Positions 46,459-49,191 are shown, counted from the stretch's first letter. The stretch is 64,000 nt of DNA from Candidatus Hydrogenedens sp. (GCA_049968235.1 JBMFRC010000001.1:224001-288000), one strand, 5' to 3'. Notes: a model not told the origin generated them from the sequence alone. Program-made: numbers and translations.

Positions 46459-49191
46459 ATGGATACTATTCAAACTTTACGCAAATCAGGCTTTCCGGAA
46501 GCACTACTTAAAGAGTATCAAAATTTCTGTTATGAACTCCTTCCTTTACAAAGGGAAGCCATTGAGAACAGAACTTTATTTTCGGAACCGCATCTGCTTA
46601 TCCATGCACCGACCAGTGCAGGCAAAACTTTTCTGGCGGAATTGGCTATGGTTCATACTTACCTTCAACGCGGGAAATCGGTATATCTTGTTCCTTTGCG
46701 TGTGCAGGCAGAAGAAATTTTTCGAACATTGCGAGAGCGATACAAACGACATGGTATACACATTTTGATTTCTACAAGCGATTACCGTCATCATGACCCA
46801 TGGCTGGAACAGGGGCGATTTCATATTGCGGTTGTAGTTTATGAAAAAATGTTTCAGTTAATTGCCCGTCAACCTTCAGTACTCAACAAAATAGGGTTAA
46901 TGGTATTCGATGATATTGATTTAATCTTTGACCCTGAACGGGGCTTAACAGCCGATTTTCTTTTAACACGATGTCTCGGCTCCTCTGTCCGATGTATGGC
47001 GTTGTCTGCCTGCCTTCCCAAACCTGCCATGATGGCAGAATGGATGAAGGCGAAACTTATCCAGTCCGGGACACGACCTGTTCCTTTGAAAAAAGGAGTA
47101 ATGTATAACGGGATTTTTTACTATTCGGATGAAACAGGGCAAGTAAAGGAAGAATACCTATTCGACACATCTCTATTTTCTGAACTCCCTTATTTACAGG
47201 GGGTTAAAGAATTTGTTCATAGAGGTGAAACCTGTCTTATTTTTATGAAAACGCGAAACGAGGTTCGTTCATTTGCATGGGAATTATCTGAATCTTTGAA
47301 CCTTCCTCCGGCGGAACAGGCAAGTGAACAAATTAAATCGCTGGAACCTACCCGAGCCCGTGATGCCCTATTACATGCTTTTCAACACGGTATCGGCTTC
47401 CATTATAGCGATTTACTACCGGAAGAACGGCAGATTGTGGAAAATGCCTTTCGCAAAGGAGAAATCCGTGTTTTAGTCGCAACCAGCACTTTAGCCAAAG
47501 GGTTAAACCTTCCCGTGCAAAATGTCTTTATTTCGCATGAAAAATGGTATTACACAGACAGGCAGGGAAACGGTGGAAACATGCCCCTTTCATCTTCGGA
47601 ATATGAAAATATGGCAGGCAGAGCCGGCAGATATGGATACACGGACCAGCCCGCACGGGCTATACTTGTCGCCAATAGTGAAGAGGAAAAAGACTTGTTA
47701 TTGTCCACGTATATTCTAAAATCCTCTCCTCCCACTTTCTTATCGGATGAATTTTCGCCTGTACATTTGCCCATGCTCAGCGTTATCGCTTCTTACGAAA
47801 CGGTTACAATGGAACACATTGTAGAATTCTTCCAGTCTTGCTGGCGGGTTAGAGAACAACTACTTTTTAATAACAACCAGAACACCTATTCCGTATGTGC
47901 AAATGATTTTATGGATTCATACATTCGCAGAGGCTTCTGTATAAAGAAAAGTTTACACCGATTTGGACTGACCCCACGGGGACAGATAGTCGCTACAAAA
48001 GGTGTTTCCCCGGAAACTATAGAACAATTGGAACAATGGTTGAACTTGATACGTGGACGGGAACGAGATGAATTGGATGCTCTATTTATTTCATCGATCA
48101 CTCCCGATGCATGGTTACCTCAATTTGAACTGTCCATAAACGAGTTCCATTCTCAGATATATATGGAACGGTTAAAAGAATATCCCCTGAAAACCCCGTG
48201 GGATGTTATGACTCCTTTACAAAAGTTTCAACAAGGCTTAGCGGAACCGAATATTCACGAGGTTAAAGGATTAAAAATAGCGTTCGTTCTGCGAGAATGG
48301 ATGAATGGAAAGTTGCTCTCAGAAATAGAAGAAGAATTTTATGTTTCAGCGGGGCAGGTCGTCCAGGCGGGAGTGCGTATTGCATGGATTTTGGAGGTAC
48401 TTGCTCAATTGGCAGAAATGATGAATATTAATAACGTCGATGATTTTCGAAGATTATCGGAGCAGGTGCGATGGGGCATACCTGCTGAAGGTTTGTCCCT
48501 TGCCCGAACCTATGAAGGTTCACTCTCACGCTCACAGATGCTCTCCTTATACGCAAATGGCATATATACTATAGAACAAATTGCCAAAATACCCCCAGGT
48601 GAGTTATTAAAATATATTCCTGAGGATAAAATCAATATAATAAAACAACTGTCCCAGAAAATACGCACAAAAAACTTTAAGTTCCCATCGCTTTCCCATT
48701 CATTCGCCAGAACAAACAAAAACCATCTGGAAAAAACTCGTTGGACACAGACACACCCGATACAGACTTCGAAGGACATTCCTTATCACTCTACACCTAA
48801 AGATATTATTACACAGCAGGAAGAATCTCCTTCTACGGCAGAAAATCATACGCAAGAAGGACAAAAGAATATCCTGTTAGTCCTTGATATGAAACGTCCC
48901 GGTGAAGTCTGGTTAGAAGGGAAAAAGATTCGTCTACCTGAAAAACAATACCGACTGCTTTATCTTCTTTCCCGAAATGCTGGCTGTTGTGTCTCTTATG
49001 ATGAGGTCTATAAGGAATTATGGAATGACATTATCGTTGAAGATGCACAGATGGCTTTTCAAAAATGTATGCTTTTACAGAAATTATGTGAAGTGTCCCC
49101 CTTATGGAAAGAACGGCTACGCACCATTCCAAAACGCGGGTTTATTTTAGACTTACCGCCGGAAAAGGTTCTCCTTAAATCTACCAGATAG
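46459..49191 (+). CDS. Ski2/Hel308-like superfamily-2 helicase fused to a C-terminal OmpR/PhoB-type winged-helix domain
   Basis: Motif I HAPTSAGKTF, motif II VFDDIDLIFD, motif VI MAGRAGRYGY. The last about 100 aa (…IRLPEKQYRLLYLLSRNAGCCVSYDEVYKELW…RLRTIPKRGFILD) resemble the Trans_reg_C domain. Confidence 0.8.
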   Translation: MDTIQTLRKSGFPEALLKEYQNFCYELLPLQREAIENRTLFSEPHLLIHAPTSAGKTFLAELAMVHTYLQRGKSVYLVPLRVQAEEIFRTLRERYKRHGIHILISTSDYRHHDPWLEQGRFHIAVVVYEKMFQLIARQPSVLNKIGLMVFDDIDLIFDPERGLTADFLLTRCLGSSVRCMALSACLPKPAMMAEWMKAKLIQSGTRPVPLKKGVMYNGIFYYSDETGQVKEEYLFDTSLFSELPYLQGVKEFVHRGETCLIFMKTRNEVRSFAWELSESLNLPPAEQASEQIKSLEPTRARDALLHAFQHGIGFHYSDLLPEERQIVENAFRKGEIRVLVATSTLAKGLNLPVQNVFISHEKWYYTDRQGNGGNMPLSSSEYENMAGRAGRYGYTDQPARAILVANSEEEKDLLLSTYILKSSPPTFLSDEFSPVHLPMLSVIASYETVTMEHIVEFFQSCWRVREQLLFNNNQNTYSVCANDFMDSYIRRGFCIKKSLHRFGLTPRGQIVATKGVSPETIEQLEQWLNLIRGRERDELDALFISSITPDAWLPQFELSINEFHSQIYMERLKEYPLKTPWDVMTPLQKFQQGLAEPNIHEVKGLKIAFVLREWMNGKLLSEIEEEFYVSAGQVVQAGVRIAWILEVLAQLAEMMNINNVDDFRRLSEQVRWGIPAEGLSLARTYEGSLSRSQMLSLYANGIYTIEQIAKIPPGELLKYIPEDKINIIKQLSQKIRTKNFKFPSLSHSFARTNKNHLEKTRWTQTHPIQTSKDIPYHSTPKDIITQQEESPSTAENHTQEGQKNILLVLDMKRPGEVWLEGKKIRLPEKQYRLLYLLSRNAGCCVSYDEVYKELWNDIIVEDAQMAFQKCMLLQKLCEVSPLWKERLRTIPKRGFILDLPPEKVLLKSTR

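What the first reader, a model, noticed from the sequence alone, without database searches (positions are those of the whole stretch)
46459..49191. SF2 (Ski2/Hel308-like) helicase fused to an OmpR-type winged-helix DNA-binding domain
Motifs I, II and VI (HAPTSAGKT, FDDID, MAGRAGRYGY) define a Ski2-like helicase core. The last about 100 residues (…EKQYRLLYLLSRNAGCCVSYDEVYKELW…IPKRGFILD) look like the Trans_reg_C winged helix of response regulators. A helicase that carries its own sequence-specific DNA-binding module is an unusual architecture. It resembles single-gene nucleic-acid surveillance/defence proteins or a specialised repair/transcription factor. Its neighbours, a NUDIX hydrolase and an AIM24-family protein on the opposite strand, are also gene types that recur in defence islands.
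Basis: partly seen in the sequence, partly recalled or inferred. Interest (0 to 1): 0.55.

Follow-up and report, generated by a model that had tools for sequence, protein, structure and literature searches.

The report
SOS-controlled Hel308-like helicase with winged helix
This gene encodes an archaeal/animal-type (Hel308-like) DNA repair helicase that, throughout the little-known bacterial phylum Hydrogenedentota, carries a ToxR/PhoB-type DNA-binding domain on a flexible tether and sits behind a conserved LexA-box-like operator, so it looks like an undescribed DNA-damage-response enzyme and not a phage-defence gene.

Summary
ORF 46459-49191 (+, 910 aa) is a five-domain Hel308/Hjm-like SF2 helicase (residues 1-738). 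A disordered linker (739-801) joins it to an OmpR/PhoB/ToxR-type winged helix (802-910).

The fusion is not an artefact:
- All 120 best homologues carry it.
- It is in 77 loci from GTDB species genomes, almost all labelled Hydrogenedentota.
- The wHTH is as conserved as the helicase core.

The defence reading is not supported. The NUDIX/AIM24 neighbours are kept only in close relatives. No defence partner is present, and the family is essentially absent from viral contigs.

The new finding is an 18-bp palindrome filling the promoter spacer. It reads aCTGAA-N6-TTCAGt in most of the phylum and AGTGAAAATATTTTCACT at window 46409-46426. It occurs in 65 of 66 helicase promoters (0.3 expected by chance). 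In Hydrogenedentota the same palindrome also precedes a DnaE2-like polymerase gene. In other bacteria it precedes lexA, imuA-like, SRAP and integron integrase genes.

Best explanation: a LexA/SOS-repressed repair helicase whose tethered wHTH acts as a duplex-DNA anchor.

Three things are not shown: that LexA binds the operator in this phylum, what the wHTH binds, and whether the odd motif II (D-D-I-D instead of DExH) leaves the motor fully active.

The parts
46403..46408 (+). -35 hexamer TTGAAT of the helicase promoter
   Evidence: This is the best sigma-70-like site in 46200-49400 (TTGAAT-17-TATAAT, 10 of 12 matches). It is homologous in position to the TTGACA found in 44 or more related loci.
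46409..46426 (.). 18-bp perfect palindromic operator AGTGAAAATATTTTCACT. It is the clade variant of the phylum-wide aCTGAA-N6-TTCAGt LexA-box-type element and fills the promoter spacer.
   Evidence: Sequence read. It is the only perfect copy in the window. A [C/G]TG-N10-CA[G/C] operator is present in 65 of 66 helicase promoters, against 0.32 expected by chance. The same palindrome precedes a DnaE2-like gene in Hydrogenedentota. In other bacteria it precedes lexA, SRAP, imuA-like and intI genes.
46426..46431 (+). -10 hexamer TATAAT, overlapping the last base of the operator
   Evidence: The homologous element is TATACT or TATAAT in related loci.
46447..46451 (+). Shine-Dalgarno-like AGGAG, 7 nt before the ATG
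   Evidence: Read directly from the sequence. GGAG-type motifs occupy the same place in related loci.
46459..49191 (+). Coding sequence of the 910-aa Hel308-like helicase-wHTH fusion, stop codon included
46459..47718 (+). RecA1 and RecA2 motor domains (about residues 1-420; boundaries approximate). Motif I is APTSAGKT (50-57), motif II DDID (151-154), motif III SAC (183-185), motif IVa FHYSDL (314-319) and motif VI GRAGR (387-391). A beta-hairpin lies at 361-376.
   Evidence: Pfam DEAD and Helicase_C. Motif table. Secondary structure of the model. Alignment to Hjm 2zj2.
47761..48672 (+). Hel308-type accessory domains: internal winged helix (domain 3), ratchet (domain 4) and helix-loop-helix (domain 5). 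About residues 435-738; boundaries approximate.
   Evidence: PF21280 covers 602-673. The alignment to Hjm runs to residue 719. Foldseek matches about 700-750 columns of Hel308 structures. pLDDT is mostly above 85.
48673..48861 (+). Disordered, polar linker (residues 739-801)
   Evidence: pLDDT is about 30 over 739-801. Linker length varies across the family: 54-70 aa in almost all of this clade, median 14 aa in the major clade. The alignment is mostly gaps here.
48862..49188 (+). C-terminal OmpR/PhoB/ToxR-type winged helix-turn-helix (residues 802-910). Recognition helix 863-876. Wing T889-I-P-K892-R893-G894-F895.
   Evidence: Conserved residues are listed.
49240..49269 (-). G+C-rich hairpin between the convergent helicase and surface-protein genes. 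It is terminator-like as scored on the - strand and may act in both directions.
   Evidence: This is a consensus match only.

Best explanation
The gene encodes a DNA-damage-inducible, Hel308-family DNA helicase/translocase that is specific to, and nearly universal in, the sampled genomes of the phylum Hydrogenedentota.

Shown:
- The protein has the complete five-domain Hel308/Hjm architecture, then a flexible linker, then a ToxR/CadC/PhoB-type winged helix.
- The fusion and the wHTH sequence are conserved across the phylum.
- Transcription starts from a sigma-70-type promoter whose 17-bp spacer is filled by a palindromic operator.
- The operator is conserved in 65 of 66 orthologous promoters.
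- In the same phylum, the same operator in the same promoter frame precedes a DnaE2-like polymerase gene.
- In other bacteria it precedes lexA itself and classic SOS genes.

Inferred:
- LexA, or a functionally equivalent damage-responsive repressor, occupies the operator and blocks RNA polymerase. DNA damage relieves the repression.
- The induced enzyme loads on single-stranded DNA at stalled forks or recombination intermediates and translocates 3'-to-5' like Hel308.
- The tethered wHTH holds on to adjacent duplex DNA. It would use its recognition helix in the major groove and its conserved Pro-Lys-Arg wing in a narrow, AT-rich minor groove. It therefore acts as a targeting or anchoring module and not as a transcription factor.
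- In the window's own clade the catalytic Glu of motif II is Asp (D-D-I-D), so the motor may be slow there.
For: Architecture: for the core and for the wHTH.

Conservation of the fusion:
- 120 of 120 top homologues carry it.
- 212 representative clusters match at E <= 1e-10. Nearly all of the best 150 are helicase fusions or C-terminal fragments.
- 77 loci in GTDB species genomes carry it. It is fused wherever the upstream DNA is present, apart from one stand-alone second copy (L083) and one truncated ORF (L052).
- Mean column identity is 55% for the wHTH and 51% for the whole protein.

DNA rather than RNA substrate:
- The best matches are Hel308/Hjm and the Pol theta helicase domain, well ahead of Ski2, Mtr4 and Brr2.
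- A motif IVa-like FH[YN][SA]DL is present (motif described).

Operator:
- The 8-mer TTCAGTAT occurs in 57 of 66 upstream regions against 0.55 expected.
- Its architecture is TTGACA-[aCTGAAnAnnTnTTCAGt]-ATAcT.
- Under the relaxed definition it is in 65 of 66 promoters against 0.32 expected.
- The window copy lies inside the best promoter match.

SOS character:
- The same palindrome lies 12-13 nt upstream of lexA in 5 contigs. It also precedes SRAP, ImuA-like and integron-integrase genes.
- In Hydrogenedentota it precedes a 1003-aa DnaE2-like polymerase gene (L112, L207). The taxon comes from a 90%-identity cluster whose 5 named members are all Hydrogenedentes.
- Some helicase operators have an E. 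coli-type TACAG half-site, so the invariant is CTG-N10-CAG.
- One outlying family member lies 55 bp downstream of a LexA-like gene, behind a spacer-filling palindrome.

wHTH as a DNA binder:
- The wing T-[VI]-P-K-R-G-F is at least 90% conserved.
- It matches the ToxR wing, whose Pro101 and Lys102 enter a narrowed minor groove.
- The domain's net charge is +2 to +7 in this clade.

Housekeeping context: there is no conserved partner and no G+C anomaly.
Against: - LexA binding in Hydrogenedentota is not demonstrated. The lexA genes found behind this palindrome belong to Binatia/'Deltaproteobacteria'-labelled MAGs.
- The window's clade uses GTGAA...TTCAC, not CTGAA...TTCAG. No second gene with that variant was found in the window.
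- The protein scores far below the NCBIfam Hel308 equivalog cut-offs (319 vs 887 bits).
- It lacks the canonical DExH motif (DELE or DDID) and the SAT motif (SAV or SAC). Hel308-like polarity and substrate are extrapolations.
- Nothing shows what the wHTH binds. The AF2 output gave no information on whether it docks on the core.
- In the major clade the wHTH net charge is only about +1.5 at the median and negative in some members.
Confidence: 0.6

Rival explanations
1. Self-regulating 'trigger' helicase. The protein's own wHTH, acting as a head-to-head dimer, binds the palindromic operator and represses its own gene and the DnaE2-like gene. When the helicase is drawn to damaged DNA the operator is vacated. 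The fusion would then be both sensor and repressor, with no need for LexA.
For: - A family-specific wHTH and a promoter-specific operator co-occur across the phylum.
- In 1.16 Mb of fetched Hydrogenedentota DNA the palindrome occurs 56 times at helicase promoters and 3 times elsewhere, which is chance level.
- The clade with the GTGAA operator variant also has a changed recognition helix, A866/C870 instead of H/R.
- ToxR-type domains can bind inverted repeats.
Against: - The identical palindrome sits in front of lexA itself and a canonical SOS gene set in other bacteria. A LexA-type binder is therefore the simplest reading.
- Helix positions 870/871, which would read bases by analogy with PhoB, vary freely in the major clade while the operator core stays fixed.
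- The one co-change is a single phylogenetic event.
- OmpR-family domains usually bind direct repeats. That statement is from general knowledge.
- The shorter helicase-wHTH clade has no such operator.
Confidence: 0.1
2. Transcription-linked factor. The wHTH targets the helicase to promoter-proximal DNA or to RNA polymerase, as OmpR/PhoB/ToxR domains contact sigma or alpha subunits. The helicase would then remove R-loops, stalled polymerases or other roadblocks.
For: - The loop between alpha2 and alpha3 (W855, V860, E861) is among the most conserved parts of the domain.
- In PhoB and ToxR this loop is the surface that touches RNA polymerase.
Against: - There is no direct evidence.
- The W-G motif in this loop is a general structural feature of the domain family. 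That statement is from general knowledge.
- No RNA polymerase or transcription genes are linked to the gene.
- Co-regulation with a DnaE2-like polymerase points to damage tolerance or repair.
Confidence: 0.1
3. Single-gene or Hachimoji-like anti-phage defence or nucleic-acid surveillance protein.
For: - PADLOC HamB and PDC-M23B models match the helicase core, with E down to 4e-39.
- One outlying relative, in an Elusimicrobiota-labelled MAG, lies beside a phage-type replication/recombination module.
Against: - The PADLOC matches cover only parts of the generic SF2 core.
- No HamA/DUF1837 gene or any other defence gene is adjacent.
- The gene is conserved across the sampled genomes of a whole phylum in varied housekeeping contexts. 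That is the opposite of the patchy distribution of defence genes.
- Only one weak hit was found in 2.9 million viral contigs.
- There is no G+C anomaly.
Confidence: 0.03
4. Ski2-like RNA helicase acting in RNA decay or surveillance, with the wHTH as an RNA- or protein-binding module.
For: The protein belongs to the Ski2-like superfamily. It gives weak Pfam hits to DSHCT and to the Suv3 helicase domain.
Against: - Sequence and fold matches to Hel308/Hjm and the Pol theta helicase domain are much stronger than those to Ski2, Mtr4 or Brr2.
- There is no arch/KOW insertion.
- The operator is shared with a DNA polymerase gene.
Confidence: 0.05

Closest known systems
Archaeal Hel308/Hjm (PDB 2p6r, 2va8, 2zj2) and the metazoan HELQ and Pol theta helicase domains
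   Same: - It has the same five-domain layout: RecA1, RecA2, winged helix, ratchet and helix-loop-helix.
- It aligns end to end (E 6e-68; TM 0.82-0.88 to the target).
- It has the beta-hairpin between motifs V and VI.
- It has a motif IVa-like FH[YN][SA]DL.

   Different: - It is bacterial.
- Identity is only about 22-26%, and it scores far below the NCBIfam equivalog cut-offs.
- Motif II is DELE or DDID, not DExH. Motif III is SAV or SAC, not SAT.
- It has an extra C-terminal linker and OmpR-type wHTH that no characterised Hel308 or HELQ has. HELQ instead has an N-terminal PWI-like extension.
- It sits behind an SOS-box-type operator.
ToxR and CadC cytoplasmic DNA-binding domains, and the PhoB/OmpR effector domains (PDB 8b4b, 5ju7, 1gxp)
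   Same: - The fold and topology are the same, at about 2-3 A rmsd over 85-90 residues.
- The wing sequence is the same: TVPKRG[YF].
- Like ToxR and CadC, it has no receiver domain.

   Different: - It is attached to a helicase, not to a membrane anchor or a receiver domain.
- The recognition helix (Q-M-[HA]-F-Q-K) is specific to this family.
- No target DNA is known.
- There is one copy per polypeptide.
SOS-regulated bacterial repair helicases and the imuA-imuB-dnaE2 mutagenesis cassette
   Same: A palindromic operator overlaps the promoter. The same operator precedes a DnaE2-like polymerase gene in the same phylum, and lexA, imuA-like, SRAP and intI genes elsewhere.
   Different: The helicase is of the Hel308 type, which is not a known SOS regulon member in model bacteria. 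LexA binding here is inferred.
Bacterial Lhr and the HamB helicase of Hachimoji defence (other bacterial Ski2-like helicases)
   Same: It shares the Ski2-like SF2 core.
   Different: - The Lhr-type C-terminal domains are absent.
- There is no HamA partner.
- The PADLOC matches are partial.
- The ratchet and helix-loop-helix domains are of the Hel308 type.

Membership tests
Hel308/Hjm/HELQ helicases | Five-domain architecture: RecA1, RecA2, winged helix, ratchet, helix-loop-helix | tested here: met
   The alignment to 2zj2 covers residues 27-719. PF21280 is present. Foldseek TM to the target is 0.82-0.88 over about 700-750 columns. Core pLDDT is high.
Hel308/Hjm/HELQ helicases | Score above the curated NCBIfam equivalog thresholds for Hel308 | tested here: not met
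   PRK02362 scores 319 bits against a cut-off of 887. helicase_Hel308 scores 232.8 against 1200.
Hel308/Hjm/HELQ helicases | Canonical DExH motif II and SAT motif III | tested here: not met
   The window protein has D-D-I-D and S-A-C. The major clade has D-E-L-E and S-A-V. D151 is invariant.
Hel308/Hjm/HELQ helicases | Motif IVa (F/Y-H-H-A-G-L) | tested here: inconclusive
   FHYSDL in the window and FHNADL in the major clade occupy the equivalent position. The aromatic residue, His and Leu are kept; Gly is replaced by Asp (motif as described).
Hel308/Hjm/HELQ helicases | 3'-to-5' DNA translocation and unwinding of forked DNA | not testable with these tools
   This needs biochemistry.
OmpR/PhoB-type winged helix (Pfam Trans_reg_C, PF00486) | Pfam gathering threshold | tested here: met
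   The isolated domain scores 28.9 bits against a threshold of 26.2. In the full-length protein it scores 24.2. All 34 family members match, best E 1.8e-12.
OmpR/PhoB-type winged helix (Pfam Trans_reg_C, PF00486) | Fold: N-terminal beta-sheet, alpha1, alpha2, recognition helix alpha3, C-terminal beta-hairpin wing | tested here: met
   The AF2 domain model has pLDDT 92.6 and this topology. The top 50 PDB fold matches are all family members.
OmpR/PhoB-type winged helix (Pfam Trans_reg_C, PF00486) | DNA-contacting wing residues | tested here: met
   T889, K892, R893 and F895 are at least 90% conserved and G894 is invariant. The wing P-K-R-G matches ToxR, whose Pro101 and Lys102 insert into the minor groove. 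This was tested at the sequence level only.
Two-component response regulators | N-terminal phospho-acceptor receiver domain | tested here: not met
   There is no Response_reg hit. A helicase core and a linker lie N-terminal of the wHTH.
LexA (SOS) regulon | Palindromic operator overlapping the core promoter and conserved in orthologous promoters | tested here: met
   65 of 66 promoters carry it, against 0.32 expected by chance. It fills the spacer between the -35 and -10 elements.
LexA (SOS) regulon | The same operator at other damage-response genes of the same taxon | tested here: met
   A DnaE2-like polymerase gene in L112 and L207 carries it. The protein's cluster is named Hydrogenedentes. 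Only this one additional gene was found.
LexA (SOS) regulon | The same operator upstream of the taxon's own lexA, and LexA binding to it | not tested
   The lexA promoters that carry the palindrome are from Binatia-like MAGs.
Hachimoji (HamAB) and other anti-phage defence systems | An adjacent HamA/DUF1837 or other defence partner, and patchy island-like distribution | tested here: not met
   The neighbours are AIM24, NUDIX, YceI and a surface protein. PADLOC hits cover only the helicase core. The gene is conserved across the phylum in varied housekeeping contexts. Only one weak viral hit was found.

The most novel reading that the evidence does not exclude
The helicase's own winged helix reads the SOS-type palindrome. 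The enzyme would then double as a damage-sensing repressor, or a co-/anti-repressor alongside LexA, of a small regulon made up of itself and a DnaE2-like polymerase. Promoter occupancy would be released when the motor is drawn onto damaged DNA. This would be a repair helicase acting as its own transcription factor.
Probability: 0.08. Interest if true: 0.85.

Novelty: new variant of a known kind. Interest (0 to 1): 0.55.

Why it matters
- Hel308/HELQ helicases are treated in the literature as archaeal and metazoan genome-stability enzymes. How they are targeted to their substrates is still being worked out. HELQ uses an N-terminal extension; archaeal Hel308 uses partner proteins.
- Here a whole bacterial phylum has a Hel308-type enzyme that solved targeting differently, with a tethered ToxR/PhoB-type DNA-binding domain. 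It has also placed the gene behind an SOS-type operator together with an error-prone-type polymerase.
- This gives a tractable bacterial model for Hel308 function. It is also a first view of the damage-response regulon and its operator in an uncultured phylum.
- It is a natural example of an OmpR-family domain used outside transcription.
- The conserved D-D-I-D and D-E-L-E variants of motif II are natural experiments on the DExH catalytic motif.

Tried and rejected
1. A homologue search with the isolated 110-aa C-terminal domain found nothing, because it shares too few index words. I replaced it with a profile search of the representative library.
2. NUDIX/AIM24 as functional partners: rejected. 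They are syntenic only in close relatives (vs 14, 16-18, 40).
3. The PF01663 phosphodiesterase gene lies directly downstream in 14 loci. I considered it as a repair nuclease partner and rejected it, because these proteins carry Sec, Tat or lipoprotein signal peptides and so are exported.
4. Defence system: rejected.
5. I looked for lexA in the window and in all fetched loci with tblastn and found none.
6. I searched the window and 1.16 Mb of loci for further operator copies and found only chance-level hits.
7. Most of the 120 metagenome matches to the palindrome are chance hits in unrelated low-GC contigs. Only the promoter-framed ones were used.
8. The LexA homologue search was meant to assign the lexA contigs to Hydrogenedentota. 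It showed Binatia/'Deltaproteobacteria' labels instead, so that link is indirect.
9. The shorter helicase-wHTH clade (L085) has no such operator.
10. The AFDB fold library was not available.
11. Co-variation between recognition helix and operator was examined and is uninformative or mildly negative for autoregulation.
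Full report
**1. Observation**

The window has an ORF at 46459-49191 (+) encoding 910 aa. Pfam finds DEAD (29-190), Helicase_C (301-393), the archaeal-helicase domain 4 (602-673) and Trans_reg_C (821-895). The Trans_reg_C match is just under the gathering score in the full-length protein (24.2 bits) and above it for the isolated last 110 aa (28.9 bits, E 1.2e-6). The neighbours are a NUDIX hydrolase and an AIM24-family protein on the opposite strand, as stated.

**2. 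The helicase core**

- NCBIfam's archaeal Hel308 models align over the whole core (PRK02362, residues 12-760, 319 bits). The scores are far below the equivalog cut-offs.
- The best solved relatives are Hjm/Hel308 from Pyrococcus, Archaeoglobus and Sulfolobus (E 6e-68 to 9e-53, covering residues 27-719). Brr2/ASCC3/Slh1, the Pol theta helicase domain and then Ski2/Mtr4 follow at much weaker scores.
- An AlphaFold2 model built on 60 homologues has mean pLDDT 85.5. Foldseek matches it to Hel308 structures with TM 0.82-0.88 normalised to the target, over about 700-750 columns. All five Hel308 domains are therefore present.
- Motif II is not DExH. It is D-E-L-E in 97 of 120 homologues (D-E-x-E/D in 104 overall). 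It is D-D-[IV]-D in the 16 that form the window's clade. Motif III is S-A-V or S-A-C instead of S-A-T.
- Motifs I, Ia, V and VI are canonical. A motif IVa-like FH[YN][SA]DL is present. That motif is a Hel308/HELQ hallmark according to a 2026 review.

**3. The C-terminal domain**

- Residues 739-801 are predicted disordered, with pLDDT about 30. Residues 802-910 form a confident domain.
- Modelled alone on 34 homologues, the domain reaches pLDDT 92.6. Its topology is three short strands, alpha1, a strand, alpha2, alpha3 and a beta-hairpin.
- Its top 50 PDB fold matches are all OmpR/PhoB-family effector domains, led by CadC, ToxR, BaeR and ArlR.
- All 34 family domains match PF00486. The family profile hits CadC at 1.1e-8 and ToxR at 1.3e-7.
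- The wing T-[VI]-P-K-R-G-F is at least 90% conserved. It is the same sequence as the ToxR/CadC wing. In ToxR-DNA crystal structures, Pro101 and Lys102 of this wing enter a narrowed AT-rich minor groove, and recognition depends more on DNA shape than on sequence (PMC10629549).
- There is no receiver domain, so this is not a response regulator.

**4. Is the fusion real and how widespread is it?**

- All 120 best homologues, down to 33% identity, have the C-terminal domain. Every named one is from Candidatus Hydrogenedentes/Hydrogenedentota.
- An exhaustive profile search with the wHTH alone found 212 representative clusters at E <= 1e-10. Nearly all of the best 150 are helicase fusions of 840-990 aa or C-terminal fragments of them.
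- That search also found a shorter helicase-wHTH clade (about 770-815 aa) and a few weaker multi-wHTH proteins.
- A scan of one genome per GTDB species found 77 loci, almost all labelled Hydrogenedentota. The other labels (Nitrospirales 'binchicken' bins, one Bathyarchaeia, one Rhodothermaeota, one FCB) are MAG labels that I would not trust without checking.
- Wherever upstream DNA is available the wHTH is fused to a complete core. The exceptions are contig-edge fragments, one truncated ORF (L052) and one 135-aa stand-alone second copy (L083).
- One relative is labelled Elusimicrobiota (P0174).
- The wHTH is as conserved as the rest of the protein, at 55% vs 51% mean column identity.
- The linker is variable: 54-70 aa in almost all of the window's clade, median 14 aa elsewhere. 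It behaves as a tether.

**5. Context**

- At 57% protein identity the neighbourhood is syntenic with the window: asd, thioredoxin, DUF1559 pilin-like genes, YceI, NUDIX, AIM24, helicase, surface protein.
- At about 34% identity the neighbourhood is entirely different and metabolic or housekeeping.
- Clustering of neighbouring ORFs over 83 loci finds no universal partner.
- The only recurrent neighbour is a PF01663 phosphodiesterase directly downstream in 14 loci. It carries export signals and is therefore unrelated.
- PADLOC matches are partial hits of HamB models to the SF2 core, and no HamA is present.
- G+C is unremarkable.
- Only one weak relative exists in 2.9 million viral contigs.
- The defence-island reading is therefore not supported.

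**6. The promoter operator (the main new finding)**

- In the 250 nt upstream of 66 orthologues, the 8-mer TTCAGTAT/ATACTGAA occurs in 57, against 0.55 expected.
- The sequences show a fixed design: TTGACA, then the palindrome aCTGAAnAnnTnTTCAGt, then ATAcT. The palindrome fills the 17-bp spacer between the -35 and -10 elements.
- Under a relaxed definition ([C/G]TG-N10-CA[G/C] with an AT-rich spacer), 65 of 66 promoters have it, against 0.32 expected. The last one has a single mismatch.
- The window's clade has the variant AGTGAAAATATTTTCACT. In the window it lies at 46409-46426, between TTGAAT (46403-46408) and TATAAT (46426-46431). The consensus scan ranks this as the best promoter match in the region.

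**7. What binds the operator?**

- CTG-N10-CAG is the spacing of the classic E. coli LexA box. That statement is from general knowledge.
- I scanned metagenome contigs with ACTGAAWAWWTWTTCAGT. Most of the 120 returned hits are chance matches in unrelated low-GC DNA.
- The hits in the same promoter frame lie upstream of several gene types:
  - the helicase (2 contigs);
  - lexA (5 contigs, 12-13 nt before the start; Pfam LexA_DNA_bind + Peptidase_S24);
  - a DnaE-family polymerase of DnaE2-like length;
  - an SRAP protein;
  - an ImuA/RecA-like protein;
  - two integron-type integrases.
- That is a textbook SOS regulon.
- Caveat: the named LexA homologues are from Binatia/'Deltaproteobacteria' MAGs, not Hydrogenedentota.
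- The polymerase, however, belongs to a 90%-identity cluster whose five named members are all Hydrogenedentes.
- A 139-kb contig with the same protein (L207) shows TTGATT-TACTGAAAATATTTTCAGTA-TACT 12 nt before the ATG. Its AddA is about 40% identical to that of a Hydrogenedentes chromosome, which is weak extra support.
- So within the phylum the operator is shared by at least two genes, the helicase and a DnaE2-like polymerase. NCBIfam's error-prone polymerase subfamily model aligns over the polymerase's full length at 667 bits, below the cut-off of 939.
- An outlying family member in an Elusimicrobiota-labelled MAG lies 55 bp downstream of a LexA-like gene. Its promoter spacer holds a different palindrome, TAGCA-N6-TGCTA.
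- I conclude that LexA, or an equivalent damage-responsive repressor, controls the helicase. This is a strong inference, not a demonstration.

**8. Could the helicase's own wHTH be the binder?**

- In the major clade the recognition-helix positions 870/871 vary widely while the operator core is constant. By alignment to PhoB from memory, these are the positions that would read bases.
- The only co-change (A866/C870 with GTGAA) is one clade-level event.
- The identical palindrome precedes lexA itself elsewhere.
- I therefore give autoregulation about 10%.

**9. Mechanism proposed**

Shown:
- the architecture;
- conservation of the fusion;
- the operator and its position in the promoter;
- sharing of the operator with a DnaE2-like gene.

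Inferred:
- repression by LexA and induction by DNA damage;
- Hel308-like 3'-to-5' translocation on DNA at stalled forks or recombination intermediates;
- the wHTH as a duplex-DNA anchor or targeting module on a flexible tether. The recognition helix would sit in the major groove and the Pro-Lys-Arg wing in a narrow minor groove.

Unexplained:
- D-D-[IV]-D, in which Asp replaces the catalytic Glu, is conserved in the window's clade. It predicts a slow or altered ATPase.
- The whole family lacks the His of DExH and the Thr of SAT.

**10. Novelty**

Full-text searches found no paper combining Hel308 with a bacterial SOS/LexA context, and nothing relevant on Hydrogenedentes and LexA. The 2026 Hel308/HELQ review describes the family as conserved from archaea to humans. 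It describes accessory modules other than a C-terminal OmpR-type domain. I rate this a new variant of a known kind. It is a Hel308-type helicase with a new accessory domain, a bacterial phylum-wide distribution and SOS-type control.

**11. Limits**

- Taxon labels are those of MAG depositors.
- The genome scan used one peptide pattern, so 77 is a lower bound and other phyla may have been missed.
- No coordinates or PAE were available to judge whether the wHTH docks on the core.
- Residue-level comparison with PhoB rests on my recollection of its sequence.

Noticed in passing
window 46906-46917 (residues 150-153 region; motif II D151-D152-I153-D154): The catalytic Glu of the Walker B/DExH motif is Asp in the window protein. 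The same holds in all 16 homologues of its clade (DDID or DDVD). The other 104 have D-E-x-E/D. No family member has the His of DExH, and motif III is SAV or SAC, not SAT.
   Followed up: partly
C-termini of major-clade homologues (e.g. P0017-P0120; L003, L006): 64 of 104 major-clade proteins end in ...S/T-x-A-A-COOH. This resembles the end of the ssrA tag and could be a ClpXP-type degron. The window protein (ending ...KSTR) and its clade lack it.
   Followed up: partly
L086:534-13257 (Elusimicrobiota-labelled MAG JBFLWK010000036.1): A 989-aa family member lies 55 bp downstream of a LexA-like gene. The promoter spacer holds the palindrome TAGCA-N6-TGCTA. The pair lies between a serine recombinase and a phage-type replication/recombination module (PDDEXK_1, AAA_24, DUF669, HTH_36, IstB-like, RusA). 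It may be prophage-borne.
   Followed up: partly
L112:2919-5959 and L207:9973-13012: A 1003-aa DnaE2-like polymerase gene of Hydrogenedentota has the same spacer-filling SOS-type palindrome 12 nt before its start codon. No imuA or imuB is adjacent. A HepT/MNT toxin-antitoxin pair lies upstream.
   Followed up: yes
L099:184-1297 and L154:1-1143 (metagenome contigs, taxon unknown): Integron-type integrase genes (Phage_int_SAM_4 + Phage_integrase; one cluster is named 'integron integrase') lie next to the same TACTGAA-N6-TTCAGTA palindrome. This fits the known LexA control of integron integrases.
   Followed up: partly
L083:4058-4465 (second locus of the same MAG as L052): A 135-aa stand-alone copy of the family-specific wHTH is encoded apart from the helicase gene in one genome. 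Several short (about 100-190 aa) representatives in the exhaustive search may be similar stand-alone proteins or gene fragments.
   Followed up: no
P0189 (1500 aa), P0235 (6306 aa), P0187, P0219: These large proteins carry 3-8 tandem or dispersed copies of a related Trans_reg_C-type domain and have no helicase core.
   Followed up: no
L085:6001-8376 and P0201, P0223, P0233, P0234, P0242, P0262: A shorter helicase-wHTH clade (about 770-815 aa) has divergent middle domains and a conserved tail ending ...AGEVC[LV]. One member carries the locus-tag prefix BH09SUM1 and sits in a housekeeping context without the SOS-type operator.
   Followed up: partly
downstream of the helicase in 14 loci (e.g. 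L003:10703-12775, L005:10699-12756, L006:10801-12750): A 650-715-aa PF01663 (type I phosphodiesterase/nucleotide pyrophosphatase) gene lies directly downstream on the same strand. It has Sec, Tat or lipoprotein signal peptides, so it is exported and probably unrelated to the helicase.
   Followed up: yes
window 49301-54769 (-): This is a very large (1822 aa) predicted surface protein with a signal-like N-terminus, Ig-like repeat regions and a C-terminal hydrophobic anchor. Its gene is about 46% G+C, above the roughly 38% of the surroundings. The syntenic gene in L001 has a Bact_surface_Ig-like domain.
   Followed up: no
window 43173-44207 (+); L001:1095-5777: A DUF1559 protein with an N-terminal prepilin-type methylation motif is present once in the window. 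The syntenic locus of a relative has four tandem paralogues.
   Followed up: no
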